Positions 6,835 to 33,155 of a stretch of DNA of 64,000 nucleotides are shown piece by piece. The notes beneath the pieces were generated by a model, which was not told the DNA's origin, searched no databases, and was given only the letters and a program-made list of their open reading frames with translations. The stretch is from an uncultured Bacilli bacterium (GTDB lineage Bacteria > Bacillota_I > Bacilli_A > RF39 > UBA660). The stretch's first letter is position 1. Each line of letters opens with the position of its first letter. Position numbers and translations under genes: made by a program. The DNA is taken from NCBI GenBank assembly GCA_944372195.1, contig CALVYK010000001.1:47644-111643 (forward strand). The letters are read 5' to 3'.

Positions 6835-7601
6835 AATAAGAAAAATCTTTTTTGTTTTTCGATTGCTTCTAAAAAATTTGGTGGCATATATTGTTGGTCT
6901 TCAAAATTAAATAATTGATTATACAAATCCCATAGTTCTTTATCTTTTCCTAATGGTGTATTTATCATTATTCTTTTGTTTGAAATAACTGTTGGAATAT
7001 GATAATAAAACATATATAAAACAATTATATTGTACAAAAATAAATCTAATCTTTCATCTAGTGGTAAAATATTTAAATATGTATTAGTTAATGCTTTAGG
7101 AAAACTATCTGTTTTATATTGATTTATTGTCGAATTGTCCAAATCGCATATGTATACTTTATCACTATTAATTAAAATATTAGAAGCATTAAGGTCACCT
7201 ATAATAATGTTATTCTTATGAGCCTCATTTATTAATTGTTTAATTTTTTTTAATATAATAATTTTTTTTTGGCGACTTTTAAATAGAAATTCATCTAAAG
7301 TAGATGATGGAATAAAATCTATTGTGTAACCTCTAAATTCTCCATCTATAAAAATTAATTCTTTTGCTTTAATAAAACTATCACTTAAATTGATAGTATC
7401 CAAGCATTCTAATTTGTTTTTTTTATTTTGAAGAACGCTTAGATCATATTGAGCATATTTTTTATTTTCATTTTTTCTTCTAAATATTTTAAAAACTTTA
7501 TTATTTTTTATATATAATACACTTTCATAACTTAAATTTGTTAAAATTTTCATATTCTGCAATTCAGTCTCAGTAATATTTATAATATTCATAAATCTCA
7601 C
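6831..7601 (-). CDS. phosphotransferase (APH/choline-kinase-like) family protein
   Basis: Brenner-type motif HKNNIIIGDLNASNILIN followed by ICDLD. Confidence 0.55.
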   Translation of the reverse strand: MRFMNIINITETELQNMKILTNLSYESVLYIKNNKVFKIFRRKNENKKYAQYDLSVLQNKKNKLECLDTINLSDSFIKAKELIFIDGEFRGYTIDFIPSSTLDEFLFKSRQKKIIILKKIKQLINEAHKNNIIIGDLNASNILINSDKVYICDLDNSTINQYKTDSFPKALTNTYLNILPLDERLDLFLYNIIVLYMFYYHIPTVISNKRIMINTPLGKDKELWDLYNQLFNFEDQQYMPPNFLEAIEKQKRFFLF

Positions 7602-7725
7602 CTATAAATATTATATCGTAATTAATTGAATTATCAAATGTTATTTATATAATTAATCATTTAAAATTACAAAAATGTCATATTATTTTATTTATATTTA
7701 GTGTATAATTTAGTTGGGTGGAATT

Positions 7726-8391
7726 ATGAAAATATTAATTGTCGAAGATGATGCTACTATAAGAAGTGGTTTAAAATATTGTTTAGAATATGAAAATTTT
7801 GAAGTTGATGAAGCAATAGGTATTGATTGTTTAGATAAATTAGATAATGTTTCTTTAATTTTATTAGATTTAAATTTACCTGATACTAATGGTTTTGATT
7901 TGTTTAAAAAAATAAAAGAAATTAAGAATATTCCAATTATATTTTTAACGGCTAATGATTTGGAACCTTCCATAGTTATGGGATTAGATATGGGAGCCGA
8001 TGATTATGTAACTAAACCGTTTAAAACAAGAGAATTAATATCAAGAATTAAAAATGTTTTAAGAAGAAATAATCATTATGATCTTATAAAAATAAAAAAT
8101 ATTACAATTGATTTAAAACAAGCTAAAGTATTCAAAAATGGAAAAGACGTTAATTTAACAGCTTTAGAATATAAAATATTATTAACTTTGGCTCTTAATC
8201 CTAATCAAGTATTTACTCGGGAAAAGATTTTAGCTGATATTTGGGATGTTAATGAAGAATATGTATATGATAATACTTTAACTGTTTATATTAAAAGAAT
8301 AAGAGAAAAAATAGAAGATGATGTAACTAATCCGAAAATTATTAAAACAGTAAGAGGAATCGGCTATAAAATAGGTGATGAGAGTGAATAA
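7726..8391 (+). CDS. OmpR-family response regulator; start set at MKILIVEDD
   Basis: REC plus winged-helix domains; extended -10 TGTATAAT at 7702-7709 excludes the longer ORF-track start. Confidence 0.88.
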   Translation: MKILIVEDDATIRSGLKYCLEYENFEVDEAIGIDCLDKLDNVSLILLDLNLPDTNGFDLFKKIKEIKNIPIIFLTANDLEPSIVMGLDMGADDYVTKPFKTRELISRIKNVLRRNNHYDLIKIKNITIDLKQAKVFKNGKDVNLTALEYKILLTLALNPNQVFTREKILADIWDVNEEYVYDNTLTVYIKRIREKIEDDVTNPKIIKTVRGIGYKIGDESE

Positions 8392-9541
8392 AAAATATTT
8401 TATTGTTAATTTTATAGCTATTTTGATTATTATACTATTTTATTTTTTAATTTCTAATGTTATTAATAATAATTATGAAAAACAAATAATTGATAATGAA
8501 AGTTATTTAATTGGTAATTTAATAACTAAACATCCTGATTTAAAAGAAGATATAATATCAAGTTATTTAATTAAAGATAATTATGAAATAGGTAATGATT
8601 TAATAAATGAATACAATTTAATTACTATTAAAAATAACAATATTATTATTTTATTATATTGTTTAATAAGTGCTTTAGTATTATTTGTAATTAATTTTAT
8701 TTATATTAGAAATATCTACAAAAAAATAAGTAAAATTGATAAATATATGAACAATATTTTAAATGATGATTATTCAATTGATATTAAAGATTATTGTGAA
8801 GGGGATATTAGTAATTTAAAAAACGATATATATAAAATGACTATTAAATTAAAAGAACAAAGTGAGTTACTAATTAAAGAGAAAAAGTATTTAGAAGAAA
8901 CTTTACAAGATATATCTCATCAAATCAAAACACCTTTAACTAGTATGTATATGATAAATGATATTTTATTTAATTCCAAAGACCAAAATGTTAAAAAAGA
9001 ATTTTTAATAAAAAATAAAAATCAAATTGAAAGGATTGAATGGTTGGTAACTAGTTTACTTAAACTATCAAGACTAGAAAGTGGAACAGTTAAATTAAAA
9101 AAAGAAAAAATAAATTTAAAAGAATTAATAGATAAAGCCATTGAACCAATTAATGTTTTTTTAGAACTAAAAAATATTAAATTAATTAAAAATATCGAAG
9201 ATACTACTATTAATGTTGATATTAATTGGACTGTTGAAGCATTACTTAATATAATTAAAAATGCATGTGAACATACTCTTGATAAAATAGAAATAATAGG
9301 TAGTACTAATCCTCTTTATACCGAAATAAAAATAGTTGATAATGGTGTAGGTATTAGTAAAAAAGATATTAAACATATTTTTGAACGATTTTATAAGGGA
9401 AATCACAATAAAGAAAGTATCGGAATTGGGCTTAATATGTCTAAAAAAATAATTAATCTACAAAATGGTTTAATTGAGGTATCTTCTAAAGAAGGTGTTG
9501 GTAGTACTTTTATAATTAAGCTATATAAAAATAATTTGTGA
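8375..9541 (+). CDS. sensor histidine kinase (two TM helices, HisKA, HATPase_c)
   Basis: H-box LQDISHQIKTPLT, N and G boxes; overlaps the response-regulator stop codon. Confidence 0.85.
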   Translation: MMRVNKKYFIVNFIAILIIILFYFLISNVINNNYEKQIIDNESYLIGNLITKHPDLKEDIISSYLIKDNYEIGNDLINEYNLITIKNNNIIILLYCLISALVLFVINFIYIRNIYKKISKIDKYMNNILNDDYSIDIKDYCEGDISNLKNDIYKMTIKLKEQSELLIKEKKYLEETLQDISHQIKTPLTSMYMINDILFNSKDQNVKKEFLIKNKNQIERIEWLVTSLLKLSRLESGTVKLKKEKINLKELIDKAIEPINVFLELKNIKLIKNIEDTTINVDINWTVEALLNIIKNACEHTLDKIEIIGSTNPLYTEIKIVDNGVGISKKDIKHIFERFYKGNHNKESIGIGLNMSKKIINLQNGLIEVSSKEGVGSTFIIKLYKNNL

Positions 9542-9543
9542 CG

Positions 9544-9569
9544 AAATTGTAATTAATTTAGTCATTTAA
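9544..9569 (+). promoter_or_regulatory. conserved upstream motif AAATTGT(A/C)A(C/T)-N6-AGTCATTTAA (copy 1 of 3); candidate response-regulator direct-repeat site or promoter
   Basis: Near-identical 60-70 nt 5' regions at 9541-9613, 10972-10999 and 14264-14334 precede all three ABC genes. Confidence 0.45.
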
Positions 9570-9613: not shown

Positions 9614-10297
9614 ATGGAAATATTAAAAGTAGAAAATTTGTGCAAAAATTATGGTAAAGGAGAAACTTTAGTAAAAGCTTTAGATAATGTTAGCTTTTCA
9701 GTTGAAAAAGGTGAGTTTATTGCTATAGTAGGAAGTAGTGGTTCAGGTAAATCAACTTTATTACATATTTTAGGTGGTGTAGATAGACCAACAAGTGGAA
9801 AAGTATTTGTTGATGGAGTTGATGTATATAAATTAAACGAAACTAATTTAGCAATATTCCGTCGTCGTCAAGTTGGTTTAATTTATCAATTTTATAATTT
9901 GATTCCTATATTAAATATTAAAGAAAATATAACTTTGCCAATTTTATTAGATAATAAAAAACCAGATGAAAAATATTTAAATGAATTAATTGAAACATTA
10001 GGATTAAGTAAAAGAGTAAATCATTTACCTAATGAATTATCAGGTGGTCAACAACAAAGAGTTAGTATTGGTAGAGCTTTGATGAATAGACCGGCTTTAT
10101 TGTTAGCTGATGAACCAACTGGTAACTTGGATAGTAAAGCAGGACGTGAAATAATTGAATTATTAAAACTATCTAATCAAAAATATAAACAAACTATTAT
10201 TATGATTACTCATGATCATAATTTAGCTCTATGTGCCGATAGAATAATTACTTTAGAAGATGGTAAAATAATAAGTGATGAAAAAAATAATAAATAA
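9614..10297 (+). CDS. ABC transporter ATP-binding protein (MacB/BceA/LolD type)
   Basis: Walker A GSSGSGKST, signature LSGGQQQRV, Walker B LLLADEPT. Confidence 0.9.
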   Translation: MEILKVENLCKNYGKGETLVKALDNVSFSVEKGEFIAIVGSSGSGKSTLLHILGGVDRPTSGKVFVDGVDVYKLNETNLAIFRRRQVGLIYQFYNLIPILNIKENITLPILLDNKKPDEKYLNELIETLGLSKRVNHLPNELSGGQQQRVSIGRALMNRPALLLADEPTGNLDSKAGREIIELLKLSNQKYKQTIIMITHDHNLALCADRIITLEDGKIISDEKNNK

Positions 10298-10300
10298 TGT

Positions 10301-10329
10301 TTGACAAAATAATTAATTTATAGTAAAAT
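10301..10329 (+). promoter_or_regulatory. sigmaA promoter, module copy 1
   Basis: TTGACA (10301-6), 17-nt spacer, TAAAAT (10324-9). Confidence 0.7.
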
Positions 10330-10335
10330 GTATAT

Positions 10336-10454
10336 AGATATGAATTATTTCATATATTAAAAAAAGAGATACATTTAATTTTGGATGTTAAGTGTTTTCT
10401 CTAATTATGTTTTGTTGAGAAAACACCGTTCAAAGAAGAATCGGTGTTTTCGTT
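10336..10454 (+). ncRNA. plus-strand leader/sRNA copy 1 with hairpin-1, antiterminator and terminator alternatives
   Basis: Hairpin ACATTTAA...TTAAGTGT; GTGTTTTCTC (10398-10407) is complementary to the terminator left arm GAGAAAACAC (10418-10427). Terminator stem GAAAACACCG/CGGTGTTTTC followed by GTTT. Confidence 0.55.
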
Positions 10455-10472
10455 TAAGATTAGTCCTTATTT

Positions 10473-10559
10473 TTAAGGACTAGGATTGTGTAAAGAACAA
10501 TCATAGCAAATGCTACAATTAGTTGCATTATATATCCTTTCTATAGTTTTAATTTCCAT
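10473..10559 (-). CDS. micro-ORF 1 (28 aa) MEIKTIERIYNATNCSICYDCSLHNPSP
   Basis: RBS GGAGGTGAT (10563-71) at consensus spacing; two in-frame paralogs follow; stop codon sits inside hairpin TAGTCCTTA..TAAGGACTA (10461-82). Confidence 0.5.
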   Translation of the reverse strand: MEIKTIERIYNATNCSICYDCSLHNPSP

Positions 10560-10632
10560 AGAATCACCTCCATCTTTAAAATAAATTAAAAATAGAGTAA
10601 AACACCTAACTATTAAACATATCTCTAAATTA

Positions 10633-10661
10633 ATTATAAATTAATTTAATATAAAAGTCAA
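10633..10661 (-). promoter_or_regulatory. minus-strand sigmaA promoter for micro-ORF 1
   Basis: -35 TTGACT (complement of 10656-61), 17-nt spacer, -10 TATAAT (complement of 10633-8). Confidence 0.65.
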
Positions 10662-10690
10662 CTATAAATTAATTATTTTGCGGATTAATA

Positions 10691-10719
10691 TTGACAGTGA
10701 TGTTAATTTATAGTAAAAT
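10691..10719 (+). promoter_or_regulatory. sigmaA promoter of the degenerate module copy
   Basis: TTGACA, 17 nt, TAAAAT. Confidence 0.55.
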
Positions 10720-10734
10720 AAATATATATATGAA

Positions 10735-10797
10735 TTAATTAGTATTATAAAAATTAATTAGATTTGAATTAATCCTTTCTATAAATTTTTTAATCAT
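10735..10797 (-). pseudogene. degenerate, truncated micro-ORF copy (MIKKFIERINSNLINFYNTN)
   Basis: Retains RBS GGAGGTGATC and the conserved start region but is only 20 aa and has no recognisable minus promoter. Confidence 0.35.
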
Positions 10798-10849
10798 AGA
10801 AGATCACCTCCATATTAATGATTTTTGATGATAAAAATTATTAATACAA

Positions 10850-10957
10850 TTATTTCATATATTAAAAAAAGAGATACATTTAATTTGCAACATTAAATGT
10901 TTCCTCTATTTTGTTGGATAAAGAAAACACCATCCTTAAGTTGAACGGTGTTTTTTT
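10850..10957 (+). promoter_or_regulatory. leader copy with a strong intrinsic terminator, 85 nt upstream of FtsX permease 1
   Basis: Perfect hairpin ACATTTAAT..ATTAAATGT, then AAAACACC/GGTGTTTT plus a T7 run (10951-7). Confidence 0.55.
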
Positions 10958-10971
10958 GTTATTTAATATTA

Positions 10972-10999
10972 CAAAATTGTCACTATATAAGTCATTTAA
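10972..10999 (+). promoter_or_regulatory. conserved upstream motif copy 2 (CAAAATTGTCAC-N6-AGTCATTTAA)
   Basis: Same motif as upstream of the ATPase gene and permease 2. Confidence 0.4.
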
Positions 11000-11041
11000 A
11001 AATAATAATATTTTGTTATAATATCTTAAAGGAGTAATATT

Positions 11042-13525
11042 ATGAAAATATTAAATATTTTGACTATTAAACATTTAAAAGCAAATAAAAAAAGAACCAT
11101 TTTAACAATCATGGGAATCATGCTAGCCACTTTTTTAATGATTGAATTAGGGCTATTATTTTCTAGTTTTAGAGATAATGGAATTCGAACAACTATTAAA
11201 TATAATGGAGATTATCATGTTAATTTAAATGTGAAAAAAGAAGATTTAAATTTCATTTCTAAAAATGATAATGTTTTAGATTATAAATATAAGTCTAATT
11301 TAGGATATTCATTATATGAAGGATTACAAAATAAAAAATATCTACAAGTTTTAACAGCGTCTAAAAGTTATTTAGATGATTTAAAGTTAATTGAAGGAAG
11401 ATTACCAAATAATGAAAATGAAGTCATTATTTCAAATAATATTAAAACTGAAGGAAATGTTGATTTAAATGTTGGAGATACTATTAAATTAAATATTGGT
11501 CAAAGACAGTGTGATGGCAAATTATTAGGGGAAAGTGCTTATGTAGTTGAATATAAATATTTGAGTGATGGAACAGTAGAAATTGTAAAAGAAGAACATT
11601 TAATAAATACATCGCCAAAAGAATATAAAATTGTTGGTATCGTTGAAAAAGATATATATGAAGAATATTCTAATCCAGGATATAGTGTATTTACAATTTC
11701 AGAACCTATCGATTTATTAAATGTATATGTAAAATATAAAAATGTTTTTAAGACAATACAAAATAGTGATTCTATTATAAAAAATTTAAATTATGAAAGT
11801 GATTTAAAATATAATGATAGTTTACTTTATTATTATGGAATAGGAGAAAATAATAATTTTATTAAATTTTCAATTTCAATATTACTAATTATTTTAATAT
11901 TAATTACATTTGCAAGTGTTATTGTAATTTATAATGCTTTTGCTATATCAGTTACCGAACGAATAAAACAATTTGGTTTATTTTCAAGTATCGGCGCTAC
12001 TAAGAAACAATTAAGATATACAATATTTTTTGAAGTTTTTGTAGTAGGTACTATTGGTATTGTACTAGGATTAATTTTATCTTTTATTGGTATTAATATT
12101 ATTTTATCAATTATTAATAAATTATTAGTTAATAGTTTATCTATTCCATTAGAATTATCAATATATCCTTTATATATATTGATTTCTCTTATTTTTATTA
12201 TTTTAACTATTGCTTTAGCAGCTTATTATCCTTCTAAAAAAGCGAGTAGAGTAAGTCCTATTGAAGCAATTAGATTAAATAATGAAATTAAAATTAAAAA
12301 GTTCAGAACACCTAAATTAATTCAAAAATTAGGTATTGAAGCAGAGGTTGCTTACAAAAATATGAAAAGAAATAAGAAAAAATATAATATAACTATTTTA
12401 TCATTATTTTTAAGTATTGTTTTATATGTTTCATTTAGTTCGTTTTTAAACTATACAATTGAATCTAGTAAAGATGCTATGGATATTCCAAGTTATGATT
12501 ATTTTGTTAGATTATCTGGTAAAGATAAAAATAAAATAGATGAAATCATTAATCAAGTTTTAAATGTTGAGGGAGTAAAGCAGAATAGTTTAATTGAATT
12601 AAAAACATTAGAATCTGATTTTAATCTAGATTATTATACTGATGAAGTAATAAACGAATTTGGAATAAGTAGTAGTCCTAAACAATATGTTCATTTATAT
12701 ATGTTAGATGATAAAACATATGAACAAGTTAAAAAACAACTTAATATTAAAGATAGACCAATTTTGTTAAATTATTTAGATGAAGAGGGATGGATAAATA
12801 AAGATATCAAAGGCTTTAATTTATATAAAGATATTAGTAGTTTAAATATATATGATAATAATAATAATTTTGTTTTAGATAATATTTATATGTCTGATAT
12901 TAAAATAGAAAATGTTGAACCTTGGATTTATACATATACTTTAATTGTTGATGAAGATACATTTAATAAAATTAAAACCGATGAATATAATATAACATTA
13001 ACTTTAAATGGCGATAATTTTACTAAAGTCGATGAATTATTACATCAAGATATTTTAGATGTTAGTATTAGTACTGATAATATTAAACAAACGATGCAGG
13101 AACAATACAATACTTTATTAGCATATAAAATAATATTATATGGTTTTGTTGTTTTGATAACTTTAATCGGTGTTACTAGTGTTATTAATACAATAAATAT
13201 GAGTGTTACTTTAAGAAGACAAGAATTTGCAATGTTAAGAAGTATCGGTTTAACACCTGAAGGATTTAATAAAATGATAATTTTTGAATGTTTATTATTT
13301 GGTTTGAAATCATTAATTTATGGAATATCGATATCATTAATTATAACTTATTTATTTCATTTAGCATTTAATAAAATGGCAAAAACTAGTTTAATAATAC
13401 CATATACAAGTATAATAATATCTGTATTTAGCATATTTATAATTGTTTTAATGACTATGTGGTACACTACTAAAAAAATAAAAAAAGAAAACATTTTAGA
13501 TATTATTAGAAAAGAAAGTATTTGA
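11042..13525 (+). CDS. ABC transporter permease, FtsX/MacB-BceB family, paralog 1
   Basis: 827 aa; N-terminal TM, two large extracytoplasmic domains and two FtsX 3-4 TM bundles. Confidence 0.85.
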   Translation: MKILNILTIKHLKANKKRTILTIMGIMLATFLMIELGLLFSSFRDNGIRTTIKYNGDYHVNLNVKKEDLNFISKNDNVLDYKYKSNLGYSLYEGLQNKKYLQVLTASKSYLDDLKLIEGRLPNNENEVIISNNIKTEGNVDLNVGDTIKLNIGQRQCDGKLLGESAYVVEYKYLSDGTVEIVKEEHLINTSPKEYKIVGIVEKDIYEEYSNPGYSVFTISEPIDLLNVYVKYKNVFKTIQNSDSIIKNLNYESDLKYNDSLLYYYGIGENNNFIKFSISILLIILILITFASVIVIYNAFAISVTERIKQFGLFSSIGATKKQLRYTIFFEVFVVGTIGIVLGLILSFIGINIILSIINKLLVNSLSIPLELSIYPLYILISLIFIILTIALAAYYPSKKASRVSPIEAIRLNNEIKIKKFRTPKLIQKLGIEAEVAYKNMKRNKKKYNITILSLFLSIVLYVSFSSFLNYTIESSKDAMDIPSYDYFVRLSGKDKNKIDEIINQVLNVEGVKQNSLIELKTLESDFNLDYYTDEVINEFGISSSPKQYVHLYMLDDKTYEQVKKQLNIKDRPILLNYLDEEGWINKDIKGFNLYKDISSLNIYDNNNNFVLDNIYMSDIKIENVEPWIYTYTLIVDEDTFNKIKTDEYNITLTLNGDNFTKVDELLHQDILDVSISTDNIKQTMQEQYNTLLAYKIILYGFVVLITLIGVTSVINTINMSVTLRRQEFAMLRSIGLTPEGFNKMIIFECLLFGLKSLIYGISISLIITYLFHLAFNKMAKTSLIIPYTSIIISVFSIFIIVLMTMWYTTKKIKKENILDIIRKESI

Positions 13526-13550
13526 CAAAATAATTAATCTATAGTAAAAT
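13522..13550 (+). promoter_or_regulatory. sigmaA promoter, module copy 2 (overlaps the permease 1 stop codon)
   Basis: TTGACA, 17 nt, TAAAAT. Confidence 0.65.
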
Positions 13551-13556
13551 GTATAT

Positions 13557-13671
13557 AGATATGAATTAATTCATATACTAAAAAAAGAGATACATTTAAT
13601 TTCCTATGTTAAGTGCTTTCTCTGTTAATTTTTTGGAAAGCACCGTTCAAAGCTGATCGGTGTTTTATTTT
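13557..13671 (+). ncRNA. plus-strand leader/sRNA copy 2
   Basis: Same architecture as copy 1. Carries GTGCTTTC and GAAAGCAC, a compensatory change relative to copy 1; terminator AAAGCACCG/CGGTGTTTT. Confidence 0.55.
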
Positions 13672-13769
13672 AATCTTTGTTTTTTATTGCTAATACTGTA
13701 TAAAATACAATCATAGAAAATATTATAACTAATTGCATTTGAAGTCCTTTCATTTGTTCTGAAGGTCAT
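13665..13769 (-). CDS. micro-ORF 2 (34 aa) MTFRTNERTSNAISYNIFYDCILYSISNKKQRLK
   Basis: RBS GGAGGTGATC; paralog of micro-ORFs 1 and 3 with a C-terminal extension. Confidence 0.45.
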   Translation of the reverse strand: MTFRTNERTSNAISYNIFYDCILYSISNKKQRLK

Positions 13770-13835
13770 AAAGATCACCTCCGTTTTTACTAAAACAGAG
13801 TAAAACACCTAACTATTAAATATATCTCTAAATTA

Positions 13836-13864
13836 GTTATAAATTAATTTGATACAAAAGTCAA
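13836..13864 (-). promoter_or_regulatory. minus-strand promoter for micro-ORF 2
   Basis: -35 TTGACT (complement of 13859-64), 17-nt spacer, -10 TATAAC. Confidence 0.55.
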
Positions 13865-13888
13865 CTATAAATTAATCACTTAATATTA

Positions 13889-13917
13889 TTGACAAAATAA
13901 TTAATCTATAGTAAAAT
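13889..13917 (+). promoter_or_regulatory. sigmaA promoter, module copy 3
   Basis: TTGACA, 17 nt, TAAAAT. Confidence 0.65.
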
Positions 13918-13923
13918 GTATAT

Positions 13924-14043
13924 AGGTATGAATTAATTCATATATTAAAAAAAGAGATACATTTAATTTTGCATGTTAAGTGTTTTCCCTATATTGTTTG
14001 TGTGAAAAAACACCGTTCAAAGTTGAATCGGTGTTTTCATTTA
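13924..14043 (+). ncRNA. plus-strand leader/sRNA copy 3
   Basis: Hairpin-1 plus terminator GAAAAAACACCG/CGGTGTTTTC followed by ATTT. Confidence 0.55.
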
Positions 14044-14059
14044 AGATTAGTCCTTATTT

Positions 14060-14146
14060 TTAAGGACTAGAATTGTATAAAATACAATCATAGCAAATGC
14101 TACAATTAATTGCATTTGAAGTCCTTTCATTTATATTGAAGGTCAT
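14060..14146 (-). CDS. micro-ORF 3 (28 aa) MTFNINERTSNAINCSICYDCILYNSSP
   Basis: RBS GGAGGTGATC (14151-9); stop codon inside hairpin 14048-14069. Confidence 0.5.
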   Translation of the reverse strand: MTFNINERTSNAINCSICYDCILYNSSP

Positions 14147-14212
14147 AAAGATCACCTCCGTTTCTACTAAAACAGAGTAAAACACCTAACTATTAAACAT
14201 ATCTCTAAATTA

Positions 14213-14241
14213 ATTATAAATTAATTTAGTATAAAAATCAA
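14213..14241 (-). promoter_or_regulatory. minus-strand promoter for micro-ORF 3
   Basis: -35 TTGATT, 17-nt spacer, -10 TATAAT (complement of 14213-8). Confidence 0.55.
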
Positions 14242-14263
14242 TTATAAATTAACACAATATGAC

Positions 14264-14290
14264 AAAATTGTCACGGCATTAGTCATTTAA
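14264..14290 (+). promoter_or_regulatory. conserved upstream motif copy 3
   Basis: GACAAAATTGTCAC GGCATT AGTCATTTAA; the downstream 5'UTR is about 85% identical to 9560-9613. Confidence 0.4.
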
Positions 14291-14334
14291 TTGTAATAAT
14301 AATTTAATACAATTATTATGGAGGGAGAAATAAT

Positions 14335-16911
14335 ATGAAAATATTAAATAATTTAACAATTAAACACTTAAAAGCAAATAAAAAAAGAACTATAGTAACA
14401 ATTATAGGTATTATTTTATCAACTGCTTTAATGGTTGGAATTGGATTGTTATTTTCAACAGTAAGAGATAATTCAGTGAAAATGATCATTGAAAATAATG
14501 GTGATCATCACGTGGCAATTGAACTAGAAAAATCTAAATTAGATTTTATTGCTAAAAACGATAGTGTATTAAAATATAAATATAAATCTAGTTTAGGTTA
14601 TTCATTATATGAAGGTATTAATAATGAGTATAAACCTTATATTAAAGTATTAACAGCATCAGATGAATATTTAAATGATTTAAAACTGATAGAAGGAAGA
14701 TTACCTAATAACGAAAACGAAATAGTTATACCTGAACATTTAGAAACTAATGGCGAAGTAAAATTAAATATTGGTGATAAAATTGTTTTAAATATCGGCC
14801 AAAGAGTAGCTAATGATGGAACATTATTGGGCGACACTCCATATGTTTATGAATATTCTTGTGATGAAAATAATGTTTGTACAACAGATGTTAATAAATC
14901 AGATGAACATTTAATTAATACTGTAAAGAAAGAATATACAGTAGTAGGAATTATAGAAAGAGATATTCAAGAAGATTATCAAGATCCAGGATATAATGCT
15001 TTTACATTATCTGAACCTAGTGATTTATTAACTGTTTATGTTAATTATAAAAATATTAAAGATACATATAAAAATACCAAAATTATTGCTAAGAATTTAG
15101 GTAATGAAGAAGTATATGATAATTTATATTATGGTATAAGTTATAATGATAATTTACTGGCATTTTCTGGTGTATCTAATTATAGTAATATGATAGATTC
15201 TATGGCGTTTATTATAATTATAATTCTAGCTTTAGTTTCAATTGCTTGTATTATTGTTATATATAATTCATTTGCTATTTCGGTAATGGAAAGGAAAAAA
15301 CAATTTGGTTTATTTTCAAGTATCGGTGCTACTAAAAAACAATTAAAGCATACTGTATTTTTTGAAGCTTTTATAGTAGGTATTATTGGTATACCATTAG
15401 GTGTTTTATCAGCTTATTTAGGTATTGGAATAGTTTTAATGATCGTTAATAAATTATTACCTAATATGTTTGATTTCCCACTTGCCTTAGCGACATATCC
15501 ATTATTCATTATTATTCCAATAATATTTATGATAATAACAATATTAGTTTCAGCTTTCTTACCAGCTAGAAGTGCTAGTAAAGTAAGTCCTATTGAAGCT
15601 ATTAGATTAAATGATGATATAAAAATAAAATCAAAAAAATTAAAAACACCTAAAATAATTAAATTTTTTGGTGTTGAAGGTGAAATAGCTTATAAAAATA
15701 TGAAAAGAAATAAGAAAAAATATCGAATAACTATAATTTCATTATTTATAAGCATAGTATTATTTGTATCATTTAGTAGCTTATTAAAATATGGATTAAG
15801 AAGTGTTTATGATTATACTGAACTACCAGAATATGAATATACATTTAATATGAGTAGTGATAATAAAGAAAGTATAGATAATATAATTAATCAAGTCTTA
15901 AAAGTAGATGGTATTAGAAAATATAGTATAATTAGACCAATTTATTATTATGCTGATAAAAATGATGATTATTATACAAAAGAATTAAAAGATAGTTATG
16001 ATGAAAGTTCTTTTGAAAATGATGTTATAAATATAATGATTCTTACTTTAGATAATAAATCTTATGAACAATATAAAAAAGAAATCAAATTAAATTCAGA
16101 TTATCCAATTTTATTAAATATATTAAATAAAATAGATTATACAGATAATTCGAGAAAACAAATTAAAATAACACCTTACAATAAAATTACTTCTTTAGAA
16201 ATATTTAGTTATGATAAAAAAGTAAATCATAAATTAGAAAATATATTTATAACTGATATTTTACCATTTGGTGTTGATAATACTTATGTTAATACTATGA
16301 TGTTTGTAGTTAATGAAAGTATGTATAATGAATTAAAATATGATAATAATTATCAATTAGAAATGTGTTTAATAGCTGATAATTATGATGAATTTGATAA
16401 AATGTTAGATAGTGAAAGTAAAGAAAATATTTTAACAGATGATATAAGCATCTATACTATGAATATTAAAAAAGAAATGCAATTATTATCCAATATAGTA
16501 TTTGTTATTAAATTATTATTATATGGTTTTATTAGTTTAGTAACATTAATCGGTATTACTAGTGTAATAAATACTATTAATACTAGTATAGCTTTAAGAA
16601 AAAAAGAATTTGCCGTATTAAGAAGTATTGGACTTACTCCTCATGGATTTAATAAAATGATGTTATTTGAATGTTTATTCTTTGGACTTAAGTCATTATT
16701 ATATGGTTTACCTGTTTCATTTATAGTTATATATTTATTCCATTTATCATTTAATGGTATTGTAGCATTTGATAGTTTGTTAATACCATATGGAAGTATA
16801 TTAATAGCTATATTTGGAGTATTTATTATAGTTTTAATAAGTATGTGGTATGCTACTATAAGAATTAAAAAAGCCAATATTTTAGATGCAATAAGAGAAG
16901 AAAATATTTAA
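14335..16911 (+). CDS. ABC transporter permease, FtsX/MacB-BceB family, paralog 2
   Basis: 858 aa, about 50% identical to permease 1, same topology. Confidence 0.85.
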   Translation: MKILNNLTIKHLKANKKRTIVTIIGIILSTALMVGIGLLFSTVRDNSVKMIIENNGDHHVAIELEKSKLDFIAKNDSVLKYKYKSSLGYSLYEGINNEYKPYIKVLTASDEYLNDLKLIEGRLPNNENEIVIPEHLETNGEVKLNIGDKIVLNIGQRVANDGTLLGDTPYVYEYSCDENNVCTTDVNKSDEHLINTVKKEYTVVGIIERDIQEDYQDPGYNAFTLSEPSDLLTVYVNYKNIKDTYKNTKIIAKNLGNEEVYDNLYYGISYNDNLLAFSGVSNYSNMIDSMAFIIIIILALVSIACIIVIYNSFAISVMERKKQFGLFSSIGATKKQLKHTVFFEAFIVGIIGIPLGVLSAYLGIGIVLMIVNKLLPNMFDFPLALATYPLFIIIPIIFMIITILVSAFLPARSASKVSPIEAIRLNDDIKIKSKKLKTPKIIKFFGVEGEIAYKNMKRNKKKYRITIISLFISIVLFVSFSSLLKYGLRSVYDYTELPEYEYTFNMSSDNKESIDNIINQVLKVDGIRKYSIIRPIYYYADKNDDYYTKELKDSYDESSFENDVINIMILTLDNKSYEQYKKEIKLNSDYPILLNILNKIDYTDNSRKQIKITPYNKITSLEIFSYDKKVNHKLENIFITDILPFGVDNTYVNTMMFVVNESMYNELKYDNNYQLEMCLIADNYDEFDKMLDSESKENILTDDISIYTMNIKKEMQLLSNIVFVIKLLLYGFISLVTLIGITSVINTINTSIALRKKEFAVLRSIGLTPHGFNKMMLFECLFFGLKSLLYGLPVSFIVIYLFHLSFNGIVAFDSLLIPYGSILIAIFGVFIIVLISMWYATIRIKKANILDAIREENI

Positions 16912-17120: not shown

Positions 17121-17139
17121 ATATTTAATATTTGTTTGA

Positions 17140-17325
17140 AAGAGTATATATATTGATTAAATAGAGAGCTGGTGTTGGGTGAAAATCAGTTAAGAAATAT
17201 ATAGAAAGACATCAAACTATAAAATAATCGGTTAATCCCGTTAAAGATTTAAGAGCATAGAATTCTATGAAATAAGGTGGCACCGCGATATTATTCGTCC
17301 TTATATTTATAGGATTTTTTTAATT
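17140..17325 (+). promoter_or_regulatory. T-box riboswitch leader (Asp specifier GAC)
   Basis: Stem-I AGAGA; specifier context AAAGACA (GAC 17208-10); T-box sequence AAGGTGGCACCGCG at 17272-87; U-tract 17316-23. Confidence 0.75.
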
Positions 17326-17338
17326 ATGAGGAGGATTT

Positions 17339-19072
17339 ATGAAAGTAAATAATAATACAGATTTTAATATTAAAAATGTAGGTGAAGTAGTAACATTATA
17401 TGGTTGGGTTGCTAAAAAAAGAAATTTAGGTGGTTTAATATTTATTGATTTAAGGGATAGAAGCGGCATTATTCAGTTAGTTGTTAAGCCGGATAATAAA
17501 TATTACGATTTGGCTGAATCTTTAAAAAATGAATATGTTATTAAAGTAGTAGGAAGTATAACTGAAAGAGAAAGTAAAAACAAAATTTTATTAACTGGTG
17601 ATATTGAAGTTATAATTAATGAATTAGAAGTATTAAATACTAGTATCGATTTACCTTTTAATTTAAATGATACTACGGCTTTAGAAGATACAAGATTAAA
17701 ATATCGTTATTTAGATTTAAGAAGAAGTGAAATAAAAGAAAAGTTAGAAGCTAGACATAAAATTACTTTTGCAATAAGAGAATATTTAAATAAATTAAAT
17801 TTCTTAGAAATTGAAACTCCAATTTTATGTAAAAGTACACCTGAAGGAGCAAGAGACTATTTAGTTCCATCTCGTATATTTAATGGTAAATTTTATGCTT
17901 TACCTCAATCACCACAAATATTTAAACAATTATTAATGATTGGTGGTATGGAAAGATATTTTCAAATTGCTAAATGTTTTAGAGATGAAGATTTAAGAGC
18001 AGATCGACAACCTGAATTTACGCAAGTTGATATGGAAATGAGTTTTGTAACTGAAGATGATGTTATGAATCTAACTGAAGGATTAATTGCTTATATTTTT
18101 AAACAAGTAAAAAATATTGATATTAAATTACCTTTAAGAAAAATGAAATATGATGATGCAATAGAATATTATGGATCTGATAAACCTGATTTAAGATTTG
18201 ATATGAAAATTAATGACATAACTGATATTTTTAAAAATACAGAATTTACTATTTTTAAAGATGTATTAAATAATAATGGTATTATTAATTGTTTAGTTGT
18301 TAAAAATAATGCGGATAAATTTTCAAGAAAAGATATTGATAAATTAACTGATTTTGTTAAAACATATAAAGCAAAAGGTTTGGTTTATCTTAAAATAGAT
18401 AATGAAGTAACAGGAAGTATTGCTAAGGTTATCTCTTTAGAAGAATTAAACAATTTGAAATCTAAATTAAATTTAGAAAATAATGATTTAATTTTAATAA
18501 TATCTGATAAAAAACAAGTAGTAAAACAAGCATTGGGTGCTTTAAGATTACATTTAGGTAAACAATTAAATTTAATAAGTGACAATTATGAATTATTATG
18601 GGTTGTTGATTTTCCATCTTTTGAGTATAGTGAAGAAGAAAATAGATATGTAGCTTGTCACCATCCTTTTACCGCTCCAAAAGATAGTGATATCGATAAA
18701 CTATTAACTGATAAAGCTAACTGTTATTCTAAAGCTTATGACATTGTAATTAATGGTTATGAAGCTGGTGGTGGAAGCATTAGAATTCATGATCAAGGAG
18801 TTCAAAAGAAAATGTTTGAAGCATTAGAATTGACAGACGAACAAATTAAAGAAAAATTTGGTTTCTTCGTTGATGCATTAAAATACGGAACACCTCCACA
18901 TGGTGGTTTAGCGTTAGGTTTAGATAGATTAACTATGCTACTTACAAATACAGAAAATATAAGAGATGTTATTGCATTTCCTAAAACTGCTAGTGCATCT
19001 GATTTAATGAGTGAATGTCCAAATGTAGTAGATGAAAAGCAACTAAAAGAGTTAGGTATAAAAACAGTTTAG
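17339..19072 (+). CDS. aspS: aspartate--tRNA ligase
   Basis: Class II aaRS motifs (FRDEDLRADRQPEFTQVD; GGGSIRIH; GLDRL). Confidence 0.92.
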   Translation: MKVNNNTDFNIKNVGEVVTLYGWVAKKRNLGGLIFIDLRDRSGIIQLVVKPDNKYYDLAESLKNEYVIKVVGSITERESKNKILLTGDIEVIINELEVLNTSIDLPFNLNDTTALEDTRLKYRYLDLRRSEIKEKLEARHKITFAIREYLNKLNFLEIETPILCKSTPEGARDYLVPSRIFNGKFYALPQSPQIFKQLLMIGGMERYFQIAKCFRDEDLRADRQPEFTQVDMEMSFVTEDDVMNLTEGLIAYIFKQVKNIDIKLPLRKMKYDDAIEYYGSDKPDLRFDMKINDITDIFKNTEFTIFKDVLNNNGIINCLVVKNNADKFSRKDIDKLTDFVKTYKAKGLVYLKIDNEVTGSIAKVISLEELNNLKSKLNLENNDLILIISDKKQVVKQALGALRLHLGKQLNLISDNYELLWVVDFPSFEYSEEENRYVACHHPFTAPKDSDIDKLLTDKANCYSKAYDIVINGYEAGGGSIRIHDQGVQKKMFEALELTDEQIKEKFGFFVDALKYGTPPHGGLALGLDRLTMLLTNTENIRDVIAFPKTASASDLMSECPNVVDEKQLKELGIKTV

Positions 19073-32225: not shown

Positions 32226-32251
32226 GACATATTAAGATTTATGTCTTTTTT
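32224..32251 (+). terminator. intrinsic terminator
   Basis: AAGACATA ttaagat TATGTCTT TTTT. Confidence 0.7.
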
Positions 32252-32301
32252 GTTTACGATTTTGTTTACGATTTGACAATTTTAAAAATTAATATTATAA
32301 T
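32251..32301 (+). promoter_or_regulatory. Fic gene promoter with tandem 11-bp direct repeat TGTTTACGATT x2
   Basis: Repeats at 32251-61 and 32264-74; TTGACA (32273-8), 17-nt spacer, TATAAT (32296-301). Confidence 0.55.
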
Positions 32302-32328
32302 AATCACTCAAAAAAGGGGGGAACCTTT

Positions 32329-33132: not shown

Positions 33133-33155
33133 AAACTCTATTTAAGTAGAGTTTT
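33132..33155. terminator. bidirectional terminator
   Basis: AAAACTCTA tttaag TAGAGTTTT. Confidence 0.7.

What the first reader, a model, noticed from the sequence alone, without database searches (positions are those of the whole stretch)
10298..14334. Triplicated convergent module: attenuator-like leader RNA plus Cys-containing micro-ORF inside a BceAB-like transporter locus
A 370-420 bp unit occurs three times (10301-10680, 13522-13890, 13889-14260) plus a degenerate fourth copy (10691-10957). The copies sit between the ATPase gene, permease 1 and permease 2.
- Plus strand: each unit has a TTGACA-17-TAAAAT promoter driving an RNA of about 120 nt that ends in an intrinsic terminator.
- Minus strand: each unit has a consensus promoter (TTGACT-17-TATAAT), a GGAGGTGAT ribosome-binding site and an in-frame-conserved 28-34 aa ORF (MEIKTIERIYNATNCSICYDCSLHNPSP and two paralogs). 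These run into the same hairpin, so the two transcripts overlap at their 3' ends.
- This convergent, terminator-sharing layout matches type I toxin-antitoxin loci (par/Fst, TxpA-RatA, BsrG-SR4). The peptides are hydrophilic, however, unlike known type I toxins.
- The minus mRNA 5'UTR contains GGTGTTTTACTC just upstream of the RBS. This is complementary to the plus-RNA segment GAGAAAACACC, so trans pairing is possible.

I do not recognise this as a described family.
Basis: seen in the sequence. Interest (0 to 1): 0.9.

Follow-up and report, generated by a model that had tools for sequence, protein, structure and literature searches.

The report
Candidate new antisense-RNA toxin–antitoxin module

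Summary
Three full units (about 88% identical) and one rearranged unit lie between an ABC ATPase gene and two FtsX-type permease genes. Each carries the reported convergent near-consensus promoters and a shared hairpin.

The reported 28-34 aa hydrophilic ORF is not the conserved product. An overlapping minus-strand frame encodes a 21-22 aa hydrophobic peptide (MQLIVAFAMIVLYTILVLKNKD). It is intact in all 34 copies found, and its substitutions are typical of a coding sequence. In relatives its ATG is lost or it shrinks to 4-6 codons.

- **Peptide mRNA:** a strong Shine-Dalgarno sequence is locked in a 5' hairpin. A second hairpin covers the peptide's own ribosome-binding site or start codon.
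- **Plus-strand RNA:** about 120 nt, three hairpins, no Rfam match. It ends in the shared hairpin, which is built like a two-way terminator.
- **Pairing asymmetry:** the peptide gene never occurs without the plus RNA (34 of 34). The RNA occurs alone about ten times.

Best reading: a new type I toxin-antitoxin family built like par/Fst of Enterococcus, but unrelated in sequence. Toxicity and transcription are untested.

Two points stay unexplained. The plus RNA has a conserved antiterminator-like alternative helix. The arrays usually sit just upstream of response-regulator-box promoters.

The parts
10301..10329 (+). U1 promoter of the plus RNA (P): TTGACA-17-TAAAAT. It starts 3 nt after the ATPase stop codon.
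   Evidence: 11 of 12 consensus positions; for the stop codon at 10295-10297.
10336..10456 (+). U1 P RNA, about 121 nt. It has SL1, SL2 and a terminator hairpin, and is the candidate antitoxin.
   Evidence: z = -5.4; covariance model R1 scores 126.8 bits; 95% of structure cells are paired across 36 distinct copies.
10417..10452 (.). U1 shared hairpin, GAGAAAACACCG...CGGTGTTTTC, with an A-tract on one side and a U-tract on the other. It is the candidate two-way terminator and the 3' overlap of the two RNAs.
   Evidence: the cofold 3' duplex gives ddG -33 kcal/mol.
10460..10528 (-). U1 H ORF: MQLIVAFAMIVLYTILVLKNKD (22 aa, hydrophobic). This is the candidate toxin.
   Evidence: Kyte-Doolittle hydropathy of residues 3-18 = 2.98.
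10473..10559 (-). Its start is mostly conserved but its product is not.
10535..10543 (-). U1 SD2 (TAGAAAGGA), the ribosome-binding site of the H ORF, 6 nt upstream of its ATG. It is partly enclosed in hairpin SL-B.
10563..10571 (-). U1 SD1 (GGAGGTGAT). It pairs with the upstream CUCU in hairpin SL-A.
10595..10625 (-). U1 near-invariant 5' element of the minus mRNA (M): GAGATATGTTTAATAGTTAGGTGTTTTACTC. It contains the anti-SD and the repeat complementary to P.
10633..10661 (-). U1 promoter of M: TTGACT-17-TATAAT.
10691..10719 (+). U4 P promoter (TTGACA-17-TAAAAT).
10735..10811 (-). U4 remnant of the M 5' region. It keeps SD1, the uORF start and SD2, but the H start codon is destroyed and there is no H ORF.
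10842..10960 (+). U4 P body (SL1 3' half, SL2 and terminator). This is a P copy without a peptide gene.
   Evidence: 80.1 bits, E = 3.4e-13.
10969..10982 (+). Response-regulator-type box TTACAAAATTGTCA, upstream of permease 1 and 12 nt after the U4 terminator. It is context, not part of the unit.
13522..13550 (+). U2 P promoter. Its -35 hexamer contains the permease 1 stop codon (13523-13525).
13557..13672 (+). U2 P RNA.
   Evidence: 114.3 bits.
13670..13738 (-). U2 H ORF: MQLVIIFSMIVFYTVLAIKNKD.
   Evidence: The KNKD* ending is kept relative to U1 through three synonymous changes.
13774..13782 (-). U2 SD1, inside the hairpin CTCTGTTTTAGTAAAAACGGAG.
13798..13864 (-). U2 M 5' element (13798-13828) and M promoter (TTGACT-17-TATAAC, 13836-13864).
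13889..13917 (+). U3 P promoter.
13924..14043 (+). U3 P RNA.
   Evidence: 124.1 bits.
14047..14115 (-). U3 H ORF: MQLIVAFAMIVFYTILVLKNKD.
14151..14159 (-). U3 SD1, inside a hairpin.
14175..14241 (-). U3 M 5' element (14175-14205) and M promoter (TTGATT-17-TATAAT, 14213-14241).
14260..14273 (+). Response-regulator-type box TGACAAAATTGTCA, upstream of permease 2 (context).

Best explanation
Each unit is a candidate type I toxin-antitoxin module with a par/Fst-like layout.

**What the sequence shows**
- A near-consensus minus-strand promoter would make an mRNA of about 210 nt (M). Its conserved ORF encodes a 21-22 aa hydrophobic peptide with a charged tail (H).
- M carries two locks on translation. 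Hairpin SL-A pairs a very strong Shine-Dalgarno sequence (SD1, GGAGGUGAU) with an upstream CUCY. Hairpin SL-B pairs the region just after SD1, including an upstream AUG, with H's own ribosome-binding site or start codon.
- A near-consensus plus-strand promoter would make a structured RNA of about 120 nt (P).
- P and M converge on one A-tract/hairpin/U-tract element built like a two-way terminator. If each RNA ends there, their 3' ends are perfectly complementary over roughly 40 nt, and P stops 1-4 nt before the H stop codon.

**What is inferred**
- P pairs with M, starting at the complementary terminator hairpins. It may extend to the GAG(U)AAAACACC repeat in M's 5' leader.
- This pairing would promote duplex cleavage and decay, and/or hold M in its locked fold, so H is not made.
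- When P falls, ribosomes load at SD1 and translate the short overlapping upstream ORF. That opens SL-B and allows H to be translated, as mok does for hok.
- H then inserts into the membrane and arrests or kills the cell.
- The P promoter abuts or overlaps the stop codon of the upstream ATPase or permease gene. Those mRNAs should therefore also end in P, which would tie antitoxin supply to expression of the transporter locus.
For: **The H frame is the coding frame.**
- Variable sites per codon position 1/2/3 number 18/7/27.
- KNKD* is kept between U1 and U2 through three synonymous changes.
- The ORF is intact in 34 of 34 copies. Thirty-three start with ATG and one with TTG.

**H resembles a type I toxin.**
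- It has a 16-residue hydrophobic core (Kyte-Doolittle about 3) followed by a K(N)KD tail.
- These are the criteria of Fozo et al. 2010 for new type I toxins: short, one transmembrane region, a polar C-terminus, and tandem intergenic repeats.

**The layout matches par.**
- Convergent near-consensus promoters are present.
- A shared hairpin gives a 3' duplex with ddG of -33 to -42 kcal/mol.
- SD1 pairs with an upstream partner in the minimum-energy fold of 20 of 23 distinct leaders. The inner stem comes in four different sequence types.
- The defining par features were taken from PMC7472228. PMC8594479 states that the Fst/RNAII and SprA1 antisense RNAs lie 3' of the mRNA and do not overlap the ORF.

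**The module is conserved.**
- Fifteen stretches from 12 species-representative metagenome-assembled genomes of uncultured Bacilli or Mycoplasmatota carry it.
- Eight metagenome contigs carry it as well.
- It occurs in at least four genomic contexts.

**The pairing asymmetry fits toxin-antitoxin logic.**
- H is never found without P (34 of 34).
- Ten P copies lack an H gene, and several of them keep remnants of M.

**The units are often in tandem**, with 1-3 copies per intergenic region.
Against: - There is no expression or toxicity data. The promoters, terminators and both RNAs are predictions.
- Covariation in P's main fold is slight because the sequences are so similar: only 2 pairs have changes on both sides.
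- The hairpin is a weaker terminator in the M direction in some copies. U2 reads GGUGCUUUCC there.
- The 5' trans-pairing gives only -2.5 to -5.4 kcal/mol net. Taken literally, P binding to GGUGUUUUACUC would free SD1 rather than block it.
- Seventeen of 21 arrays sit immediately upstream of a response-regulator-box promoter, with P pointing the same way as the boxed gene. This hints at a role tied to that regulon rather than a free-standing addiction module.
- P has a conserved antiterminator-like alternative helix. A plain antitoxin would not need one.
- H has no PXXXG motif and matches no toxin family.
Confidence: 0.6

Rival explanations
1. H is a small membrane protein that works with the Bce-like sensing and transport system, for example as an accessory or regulatory subunit of the FtsX permeases or the kinase. 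P is its antisense regulator. On this reading the module is a regulatory part of the locus and not a toxin-antitoxin pair.
For: - Seventeen of 21 arrays lie directly upstream of a response-regulator-box promoter, always in the same orientation. The boxed gene is a permease, the ATPase or a P-type ATPase.
- The M promoter and the boxed promoter are back to back, about 20 nt from the box.
- The upstream transporter genes run straight into P.
- From my own knowledge: small membrane proteins attached to BceAB-type transporters are known, for example VraH with VraDE in S. aureus.
Against: - H is on the opposite strand and has its own near-consensus promoter.
- Complete modules occur with no box and no transporter gene nearby at L004, L008, L020 and L021.
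- The transporter locus does well without H next to a given permease. P-only copies stand upstream of permease 1 in several genomes.
- The copy number of H varies from 1 to 3 per array.
- Double locking of translation plus a convergent antisense RNA is typical of toxic products.
Confidence: 0.2
2. P is mainly a cis-acting element. It terminates the upstream gene and, through its terminator/antiterminator switch, sets how much transcription reads through toward the downstream boxed gene. M and H are a secondary addition.
For: - P has a four-segment layout. SL2 and the terminator compete with a seg1:seg2 helix. That helix is paired in 87% of cells, has 7 cells with changes on both sides, and no shuffle out of 500 reaches the observed value.
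- Cognate seg1:seg2 pairs are more stable than non-cognate pairs (permutation p = 0.0002).
- In P-only copies the terminator lies 10-12 nt from the box.
- P points the same way as the boxed gene in 17 of 17 box-adjacent arrays.
Against: - P has its own strong promoter, and the downstream gene has its own box and promoter.
- In complete units a convergent, strongly promoted gene lies between P and the target.
- At L004 and L008 the gene downstream of P is on the opposite strand.
- Some P-only copies carry remnants of M, so they derive from complete modules.
- The alternative helix is weak in the second sequence group, at -4 to -6 kcal/mol.
- No Rfam leader family matches.
Confidence: 0.1
3. One reading: the product is the 28-34 aa hydrophilic, Cys-containing peptide translated from GGAGGTGAT-ATG.
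For: SD1 and an ATG at ideal spacing are present in nearly all copies (30 of the 34 complete copies by my count). Initiation there is therefore likely.
Against: - Only 7% of codon differences are synonymous in this frame.
- The product length ranges from 4 to 50 aa. The ATG is lost in L010 and L018.
- The frame stays open across the H ORF automatically. Its third codon position is H's second position, which is U or C in hydrophobic codons, so no stop codon can form (direct reading of the sequences).
- The 'conserved' NCSICYDC string is a frame-shifted image of IVAFAMIV.
Confidence: 0.03
4. The unit is a MITE-like selfish repeat with terminal inverted repeats. Its promoters and hairpins are incidental and it makes no dedicated RNA or peptide.
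For: - U1 has a perfect 20-nt inverted repeat at its two ends, 10305-10324 and 10661-10680.
- The unit is multicopy and occurs in several genomic contexts.
Against: - The H ORF shows a coding pattern of substitution.
- The SD-sequestering hairpin is kept through different stem sequences.
- The inverted repeat is a motif shared by the two promoters (TTAATTTATAG), not a transposon end. I saw no target-site duplications in the flanks.
- The unit is absent from the phage, plasmid and viral collections.
Confidence: 0.05

Closest known systems
par of pAD1 and chromosomal par(EF0409) of Enterococcus faecalis (Fst / RNA I / RNA II)
   Same: - Convergent promoters and one shared two-way intrinsic terminator. 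The complementary terminator hairpins give the 3' contact.
[quoted passage not shown]
- A 5' stem-loop sequesters the Shine-Dalgarno sequence.
- A DNA direct repeat transcribed in opposite directions gives a second complementary site.
- The toxin is a single hydrophobic helix with a charged C-terminal tail.
- par(EF0409) also sits between paralogous transporter operons, with no terminator before the antitoxin gene (PMC7472228; PMC8594479).
   Different: - The peptide is 21-22 aa rather than 33. It has no PXXXG motif and no conserved Trp, and gives no Pfam Fst hit even at E up to 10.
- P is about 120 nt with three hairpins. RNA II of pAD1 is about 40 nt (PMC7472228).
- There is only one short repeat. 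It lies upstream of SD1 and does not cover the start codon.
- There is a second ribosome-binding site and an overlapping upstream ORF.
- P has an antiterminator-like alternative helix.
- No Rfam antitoxin family matches.
SprA1 / SprA1AS (PepA1) of Staphylococcus aureus
   Same: - The pair is convergent and overlaps only at the 3' end, outside the ORF.
- The functional pairing is proposed to lie outside the overlap (PMC8594479).
- The toxin is a short membrane peptide.
   Different: PepA1 belongs to the Fst superfamily (PMC7472228). I found no sequence or covariance-model similarity here.
hok / mok / sok of plasmid R1
   Same: - An upstream ORF with a strong initiation site overlaps the toxin ORF in another frame.
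- The toxin's own start is buried in mRNA structure, so toxin translation would depend on translation of the leader ORF. Here this is inferred. The mok-hok coupling itself is from my own knowledge.
   Different: - From my own knowledge, Sok pairs with the mok initiation region at the 5' side and lies inside the mRNA. P here is convergent at the 3' end.
- From my own knowledge, Hok is about 50 aa and occurs in Gram-negative bacteria.
- The upstream ORF here is dispensable or very short in some copies (L010, L018, L020, L025).
TxpA/RatA and BsrG/SR4 of Bacillus subtilis
   Same: - The antisense RNA is convergent and overlaps the 3' end, in a Gram-positive host (PMC8594479).
- From my own knowledge, the duplex in those systems is cut by RNase III. 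That is a plausible mode of action here too.
   Different: In those systems the overlap reaches into the ORF (PMC8594479); here it is limited to the roughly 40-nt terminator. From my own knowledge those toxins are 38-59 aa. There are no Rfam matches here.
Terminator/antiterminator leaders (transcription attenuators)
   Same: P has four segments that can form either SL2 plus the terminator or an antiterminator helix. The antiterminator helix shows compensatory changes.
   Different: - There is no leader peptide, no known ligand or protein site, and no Rfam family.
- P has its own promoter and is separated from the downstream gene by a convergent gene and another promoter.

Membership tests
Type I toxin-antitoxin system (generic) | Short peptide (under 70 aa) with one predicted transmembrane stretch and a polar or charged C-terminus. 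| tested here: met
   The peptide is 21-22 aa. Kyte-Doolittle hydropathy of residues 3-18 is 2.8-3.2, and the tail is K(N)KD. The criteria are from PMC2887945.
Type I toxin-antitoxin system (generic) | The peptide ORF is a real coding sequence. | tested here: met
   Variable sites per codon position are 18/7/27. Synonymous differences are 36% against 7% and 20% in the other two frames. The ORF is intact in 34 of 34 copies.
Type I toxin-antitoxin system (generic) | An adjacent gene for a small RNA that is complementary to the toxin mRNA. | tested here: met
   P has its own promoter, a stable fold and a 3' overlap of roughly 40 nt with M. All of this is prediction from sequence.
Type I toxin-antitoxin system (generic) | Both RNAs are expressed, the peptide is toxic when overproduced, and the RNA neutralises it. 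| not testable with these tools
   The host is uncultured and no transcriptome or expression data were available.
par / Fst-RNA II family | Convergent promoters. | tested here: met
   These sites include all five 11-of-12 matches in the region.
par / Fst-RNA II family | A shared two-way intrinsic terminator. | tested here: inconclusive
   One hairpin is flanked by an A-tract and a U-tract and is read by both strands. The U-tract in the M direction is weak in U2 and L004. Termination was not measured.
par / Fst-RNA II family | Direct repeats (DRa/DRb) that give 5' complementarity covering the toxin's ribosome-binding site and start codon. | tested here: inconclusive
   There is one repeat, GAG(T)AAAACACC. 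It lies upstream of SD1 and does not cover a start codon. The net cofold gain is only -2.5 to -5.4 kcal/mol.
par / Fst-RNA II family | A 5' stem-loop that sequesters the Shine-Dalgarno sequence. | tested here: met
   SD1 is paired with an upstream partner in 20 of 23 distinct leaders, with four different inner-stem sequence types.
par / Fst-RNA II family | An Fst-type peptide (PXXXG motif, Pfam Fst family). | tested here: not met
   None of the H variants contains Pro, and only one group ends in Gly. No Pfam or NCBIfam toxin family matches at E up to 10.
par / Fst-RNA II family | An RNA II-type antitoxin RNA (Rfam). | tested here: not met
   There is no Rfam match at the gathering score. The best match in the region has E = 3.9 and is to an unrelated family.
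hok/mok/sok | A leader ORF overlaps the toxin ORF and is required for its translation, and the antisense RNA targets the leader's initiation site. | tested here: inconclusive
   An overlapping upstream ORF with a strong SD is present in most copies, but it is lost or reduced to 4-6 codons in some. P lies at the 3' end, not the 5' end. Coupling is inferred only.
Transcription attenuator / riboswitch leader | A terminator and a mutually exclusive antiterminator in the 5' leader of the regulated gene. | tested here: inconclusive
   The alternative helix is supported. The position as a leader is not: P has its own promoter, a convergent gene lies in between, and at L004 and L008 the neighbouring gene is on the opposite strand.
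BceAB-associated small membrane protein (VraH-like) | The small protein is encoded in the transporter operon and always occurs with the transporter. | tested here: not met
   H is on the opposite strand with its own promoter. Complete modules occur away from any transporter at L004, L008, L020 and L021.

The most novel reading that the evidence does not exclude
The module may be an RNA-sensing switch built into an antimicrobial-peptide stress regulon, not a passive addiction cassette.
- M's near-invariant 5' leader is a homologue and mimic of segment 1 of P. It, or a factor that binds both homologous leaders, could decide whether nascent P terminates or reads through.
- Read-through P would run antisense across the whole H gene and on toward the response-regulator-box promoter.
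- Because the transporter mRNAs end in P, envelope-stress signalling, transporter expression and production of a membrane-active 22-aa peptide would be coupled through one RNA element.
Probability: 0.12. Interest if true: 0.8.

Novelty: new variant of a known kind. Interest (0 to 1): 0.6.

Why it matters
- If confirmed, this would be a new type I toxin-antitoxin family in reduced-genome, uncultured gut bacteria (Mycoplasmatota or Bacilli), a group that cannot yet be studied by genetics. Neither the toxin nor the RNA matches a family in the libraries searched.
- It combines features so far seen separately: the par-type convergent layout with a shared terminator, hok/mok-like dependence on an upstream ORF, and an antitoxin RNA with a terminator/antiterminator choice.
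- It is physically joined to the 3' ends and the regulated promoters of a peptide-antibiotic sensing and transport locus. This makes it a tractable case for the long-standing question of what chromosomal type I systems do.
- It is also a practical warning. A 22-codon hydrophobic ORF forces an overlapping frame to stay open. That frame looks like a longer conserved micro-ORF behind a perfect ribosome-binding site, and gene callers and human readers will tend to pick it.

Tried and rejected
- **Rfam.** The whole window at gathering scores gave only a T-box at 17128-17305. A permissive scan of 10200-14400 gave four chance-level matches with E from 3.9 to 8.9: rli28, rhtB, STnc40 and a microRNA. 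I rejected all four.
- **Pfam and NCBIfam.** Scans of six peptide variants gave only sub-threshold noise: Ost4, DUF1601 and a Mycoplasma 3TM family.
- **Plasmids, phages and viral contigs.** blastn and tblastn against the plasmid and phage collections, plus two viral-contig pattern scans, gave nothing apart from one 64-nt AT-rich chance hit in Fusobacterium.
- **Leader peptide in P.** ATGAATTATTTCATATATTAA in U1 would give MNYFIY. The other units read MN*, so it is not conserved (reading).
- **A-rich linker of P pairing with the 5' arm of SL-A.** It pairs 11 of 12 in U1. The pairing is absent in the second sequence group, and 3 of 300 shuffles did as well.
- **A 5'-3' helix within M (GUUUAA/UUAAAC).** It appears in the U1 fold but is not clearly kept in U2-type copies.
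- **MITE reading.** I considered this because of the 20-nt inverted repeat at the unit ends. I rejected it as the main explanation; see the rival explanations.
- **Covariation in P's main fold.** The test is nearly uninformative because the copies are too similar.

Full report
**1. The observation**

The region 10296-14262 contains three complete copies of a unit of about 375-390 bp: U1 10296-10685, U2 13517-13888 and U3 13884-14262. Their mean column identity is 89%. A fourth, rearranged copy, U4, lies at 10686-10965.

- an OmpR-type response regulator (7714-8391) and a histidine kinase (8375-9541);
- an ABC ATPase (9614-10297);
- two FtsX-type permeases of 827 and 858 aa (11042-13525 and 14335-16911).

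The window has about 23% G+C. The four plus-strand TTGACA-17-TAAAAT sites and U1's minus-strand TTGACT-17-TATAAT site are the five 11-of-12 promoter-like matches in the region. U3's minus site scores 10 of 12, and U2's has a TATAAC -10 and was not listed by the scan. The total number of weaker matches is no higher than in shuffled sequence. The invariant 23-mer of the unit has 3 matches in the window against 0 expected by chance. The sequence features are therefore real and not chance.

**2. The conserved peptide is in a different frame**

Translating the minus strand in all frames shows a second ORF.
- U1: MQLIVAFAMIVLYTILVLKNKD
- U2: MQLVIIFSMIVFYTVLAIKNKD
- U3: MQLIVAFAMIVFYTILVLKNKD

Each has its own ribosome-binding site, (A)GAAAGGA, 6 nt upstream of the ATG. 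I call this ORF H.

One genome-collection scan with a 20-mer from the unit returned 15 stretches from 12 species-representative metagenome-assembled genomes. These are uncultured Bacilli or 'Tenericutes', including Candidatus Faecisoma merdavium, which NCBI places in Mycoplasmatota. One metagenome scan keyed on the plus RNA returned 8 more contigs.

Evidence that H is the coding frame:
- Across these loci H is intact in all 34 copies. Thirty-three start with ATG and one with TTG.
- Among 18 distinct H sequences, variable sites fall 18/7/27 on codon positions 1/2/3.
- Thirty-six percent of differing codon pairs are synonymous in the H frame.
- Between U1 and U2 the ending KNKD* is kept through three synonymous changes.

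- Its ATG is lost in L010 and L018.
- It is cut to 6 codons in L020 and L026 and to 4 codons in L025.
- Elsewhere its length ranges from 28 to 50 aa.

Its apparent conservation has a simple cause. Its third codon position is H's second position, which is U or C in hydrophobic codons, so no stop codon can arise across H residues 3-18. It ends as soon as H reaches its lysines (direct reading of the sequences). The 'Cys-containing' motif is the frame-shifted image of IVAFAMIV.

H has a 16-residue core with Kyte-Doolittle hydropathy of about 3, followed by a charged tail.

**3. Anatomy of the minus mRNA (M)**

From its promoter, M would be about 210 nt.
- Its first 31 nt, GAGAUAURUUUAAUAGUUAGGUGUUUUACUC, are nearly invariant in all copies.
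- The CUCY at the end of this element pairs with SD1 (GGAGGUGAU, a 9-10 nt match to the 16S rRNA 3' end) in hairpin SL-A.
- In minimum-energy folds of 23 distinct leaders, SD1 pairs with an upstream partner in 20. The inner stem comes in four different sequence types: UAUUUUUAA/UUAAAGAUG, UGUUUU/AAAACG, GCUCCG/CGGAGG, and a long ACAACAAUA.../UAUUGUU insertion. The structure is therefore conserved through sequence change.
- A second hairpin, SL-B, pairs the stretch just after SD1, including the upstream AUG. Its partner is the region next to SD2 (U1 type), SD2 itself (U2/U3 type, CCUUCA/UGAAAGG), or the H start codon (L004/L020/L021 type, AUCUUUAU/AUAAAGAU).
- In L018 the upstream AUG is lost but SL-B is kept through changes on both arms.

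H translation thus looks doubly locked. The upstream AUG sits in the arm of the hairpin that must open.

**4. Anatomy of the plus RNA (P)**

P is about 120 nt. It has SL1, an A-rich linker, SL2 and a terminator (-33.8 kcal/mol, z = -5.4).

A covariance model built from 30 copies finds exactly four P copies in the window: 10336, 10842, 13557 and 13924. It finds 40 strong matches overall. Ninety-five percent of structure cells are paired, but the copies are so alike that covariation is slight.

P also has a helix that excludes the terminator. It joins seg1 (the 3' half of SL2, GUGUUUUCUC) with seg2 (the 5' half of the terminator, GAGAAAACAC).
- It is paired in 87% of cells and has 7 cells with changes on both sides. 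No shuffle out of 500 reaches the observed value.
- Cognate seg1:seg2 pairs are more stable than non-cognate ones (permutation p = 0.0002). The copies are related to one another, which inflates such tests.
- In the U2-type copies and in L012:6142, the double changes keep this helix while weakening both SL2 and the terminator.
- In the second sequence group the helix is weak.

**5. Relation of P to M**

Both RNAs run into the same hairpin, which has an A-tract on one side and a U-tract on the other. If each terminates there, their 3' ends are perfectly complementary over roughly 40 nt. The cofold gain is -33 to -42 kcal/mol. P then ends 1-4 nt from the H stop codon, so the ORF itself is not overlapped.

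It corresponds to a DNA direct repeat, GAG(T)AAAACACC, at 10417 and 10595. Both partners are buried in stable hairpins, however, and the net gain with the M leader alone is only -2.5 to -5.4 kcal/mol.

The first 30 nt of M are also homologous, not complementary, to the SL2 region of P. The two promoters share a TTAATTTATAG motif. This explains the 20-nt inverted repeat at the ends of the unit and suggests that the unit arose by an inverted duplication.

**6. Distribution**

- H never occurs without P (34 of 34).
- P occurs without H ten times:
  - The U4 type, in the window and in L005, L011, L015, L018 and L019, keeps SD1, the upstream AUG and SD2 but has lost the H start codon.
  - L023 keeps a decayed M promoter.
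  - L012:6142 and L024:8781 keep only P.
  - The tenth is a truncated copy at the end of L005.
- The P-only copies with M remnants derive from complete modules.
- Arrays hold 1-3 units.

The genomic contexts are:
- the regulator-kinase-ATPase-permease locus, either between ATPase and permeases or between kinase and ATPase;
- upstream of a P-type ATPase (L007, L013, L023);
- after gatB (L014);
- unrelated neighbourhoods (L004, L008, L020, L021).

Nothing similar occurs in the plasmid, phage or viral collections.

**7. Most likely mechanism**

The best-supported reading is a type I toxin-antitoxin module: H is the membrane toxin, M its locked mRNA, and P the antisense antitoxin.

Shown at the sequence level:
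- the coding frame;
- the peptide's character;
- the convergent promoters;
- the shared hairpin and 3' complementarity;
- the two sequestering hairpins;
- the asymmetry between H and P;
- tandem multiplication.

Inferred:
- P pairs first through the complementary terminator hairpins, as in par. It then triggers duplex cleavage or keeps M locked.
- When P is scarce, ribosomes load at SD1 and translate the short upstream ORF. This opens SL-B and allows H to be made, as mok does for hok.

Also inferred: P's -35 hexamer starts 3 nt after the ATPase stop codon and contains the permease 1 stop codon. The same holds after the kinase gene in L006. The upstream mRNAs should therefore end in P, so antitoxin supply would follow expression of the locus. 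A similar read-through into the antitoxin RNA has been suggested for par(EF0409), where there is no terminator between the upstream gene and the antitoxin (PMC7472228).

I put this explanation at about 0.6.

**8. What does not fit neatly**

- **Position.** Seventeen of 21 arrays lie immediately upstream of a 14-bp palindromic box, T[GT]ACNAAATTGT[CA]A, with P pointing toward the boxed gene. In the window, boxes precede all four transcription units of the locus, at 7667, 9539, 10969 and 14260. They look like binding sites of the locus's own response regulator. This resemblance to BceR-type sites is from my own knowledge and was not tested. The P-type ATPase context carries the same box, so module and box may travel together.
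- **The alternative helix.** A simple antitoxin does not need P's antiterminator-like helix.
- **Direction of the 5' pairing.** Taken literally, P binding to M's 5' element would free SD1 rather than block it.

These points keep two rivals alive. One is that H is an accessory membrane peptide of the sensing and transport system (0.2). The other is that P is mainly a cis-acting terminator or switch for the boxed genes (0.1). They also motivate the more novel 'RNA-sensing switch' reading (0.12).

**9. Comparison with known systems**

By layout the module works like par/Fst-RNA II and SprA1/SprA1AS. The shared features are convergent promoters, a shared terminator, an antisense RNA 3' of the ORF, a 5' stem-loop over the Shine-Dalgarno sequence, and a direct repeat (PMC7472228; PMC8594479).

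It is not a member of that family:
- There is no PXXXG motif and no Pfam or NCBIfam hit.
- There is no Rfam antitoxin hit.
- P is about three times longer than RNA II of pAD1.
- The repeat does not cover a start codon.

The upstream ORF recalls mok, but the antisense RNA is at the other end of the mRNA. The module meets the criteria of Fozo et al. for new type I toxin candidates (PMC2887945).

**10. Verdict**

- The feature is real, conserved and unannotated.
- The peptide call was wrong, in a way that strengthens the toxin-antitoxin reading.
- Novelty: a new variant of a known kind.
- Interest: 0.6. It is a solid new candidate family with unusual regulatory wiring and an intriguing genomic placement, but it is wholly predicted, and new type I families are not rare.

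Noticed in passing
window 7667-7680, 9539-9552, 10969-10982, 14260-14273: A 14-bp palindromic box (TGACAAAATTGTCA and variants with 1-2 mismatches) precedes each of the four transcription units of the locus: regulator-kinase, ATPase, permease 1 and permease 2. There are 7 matches in the window against 1.7 expected. It is probably the binding site of the locus's own response regulator. The same box precedes a P-type ATPase gene in L007, L013 and L023.
   Followed up: partly
window 17128-17305: A T-box leader (Rfam RF00230, 115 bits) lies upstream of the 577-aa ORF at 17339-19072. It was the only Rfam match at the gathering score in the whole window.
   Followed up: no
window 10295-10306 and 13522-13527; L006 around 2331-2345: The -35 hexamer of the plus-RNA promoter starts 3 nt after the ATPase stop codon, contains the permease 1 stop codon, and directly follows the kinase stop codon in L006. 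No separate terminator follows those genes, so they probably terminate at the plus RNA's hairpin.
   Followed up: partly
window 10305-10324 and 10661-10680; M leader 10595-10625 against P 10362-10402: The two ends of the unit share a promoter-proximal motif, TTAATTTATAG (a perfect 20-nt inverted repeat in U1). The first 30 nt of the minus mRNA are homologous to SL2 of the plus RNA. The unit therefore looks like an inverted duplication of one promoter-leader.
   Followed up: partly
L004 4260-4280 against L006 around 2330-2345: The module at the unrelated L004 site keeps about 13 nt of left flank (AATAAATTTGTAG) that resemble the 3' end of the kinase gene in L006. This suggests it was copied there by recombination together with a piece of flank, not by precise transposition.
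   Followed up: no
L001-L003 (metagenome contigs carrying permease 1): The three short assemblies shown that carry the identical permease 1 (3.0-5.6 kb) end a few hundred bases from the gene, where the repeat units lie. The repeats probably fragment short-read assemblies of this locus.
   Followed up: no
window 5798-7601: Upstream of the regulator gene lie a lipoprotein-like 175-aa ORF, a 169-aa 'small multidrug export' (PF06695) protein, and a minus-strand 256-aa ORF with a weak protein-kinase match. The first two are syntenic in most related loci.
   Followed up: no
window 32000-36000: GC skew turns negative over about 32-36 kb while it is positive elsewhere. This probably marks a block of genes on the other strand.
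   Followed up: no
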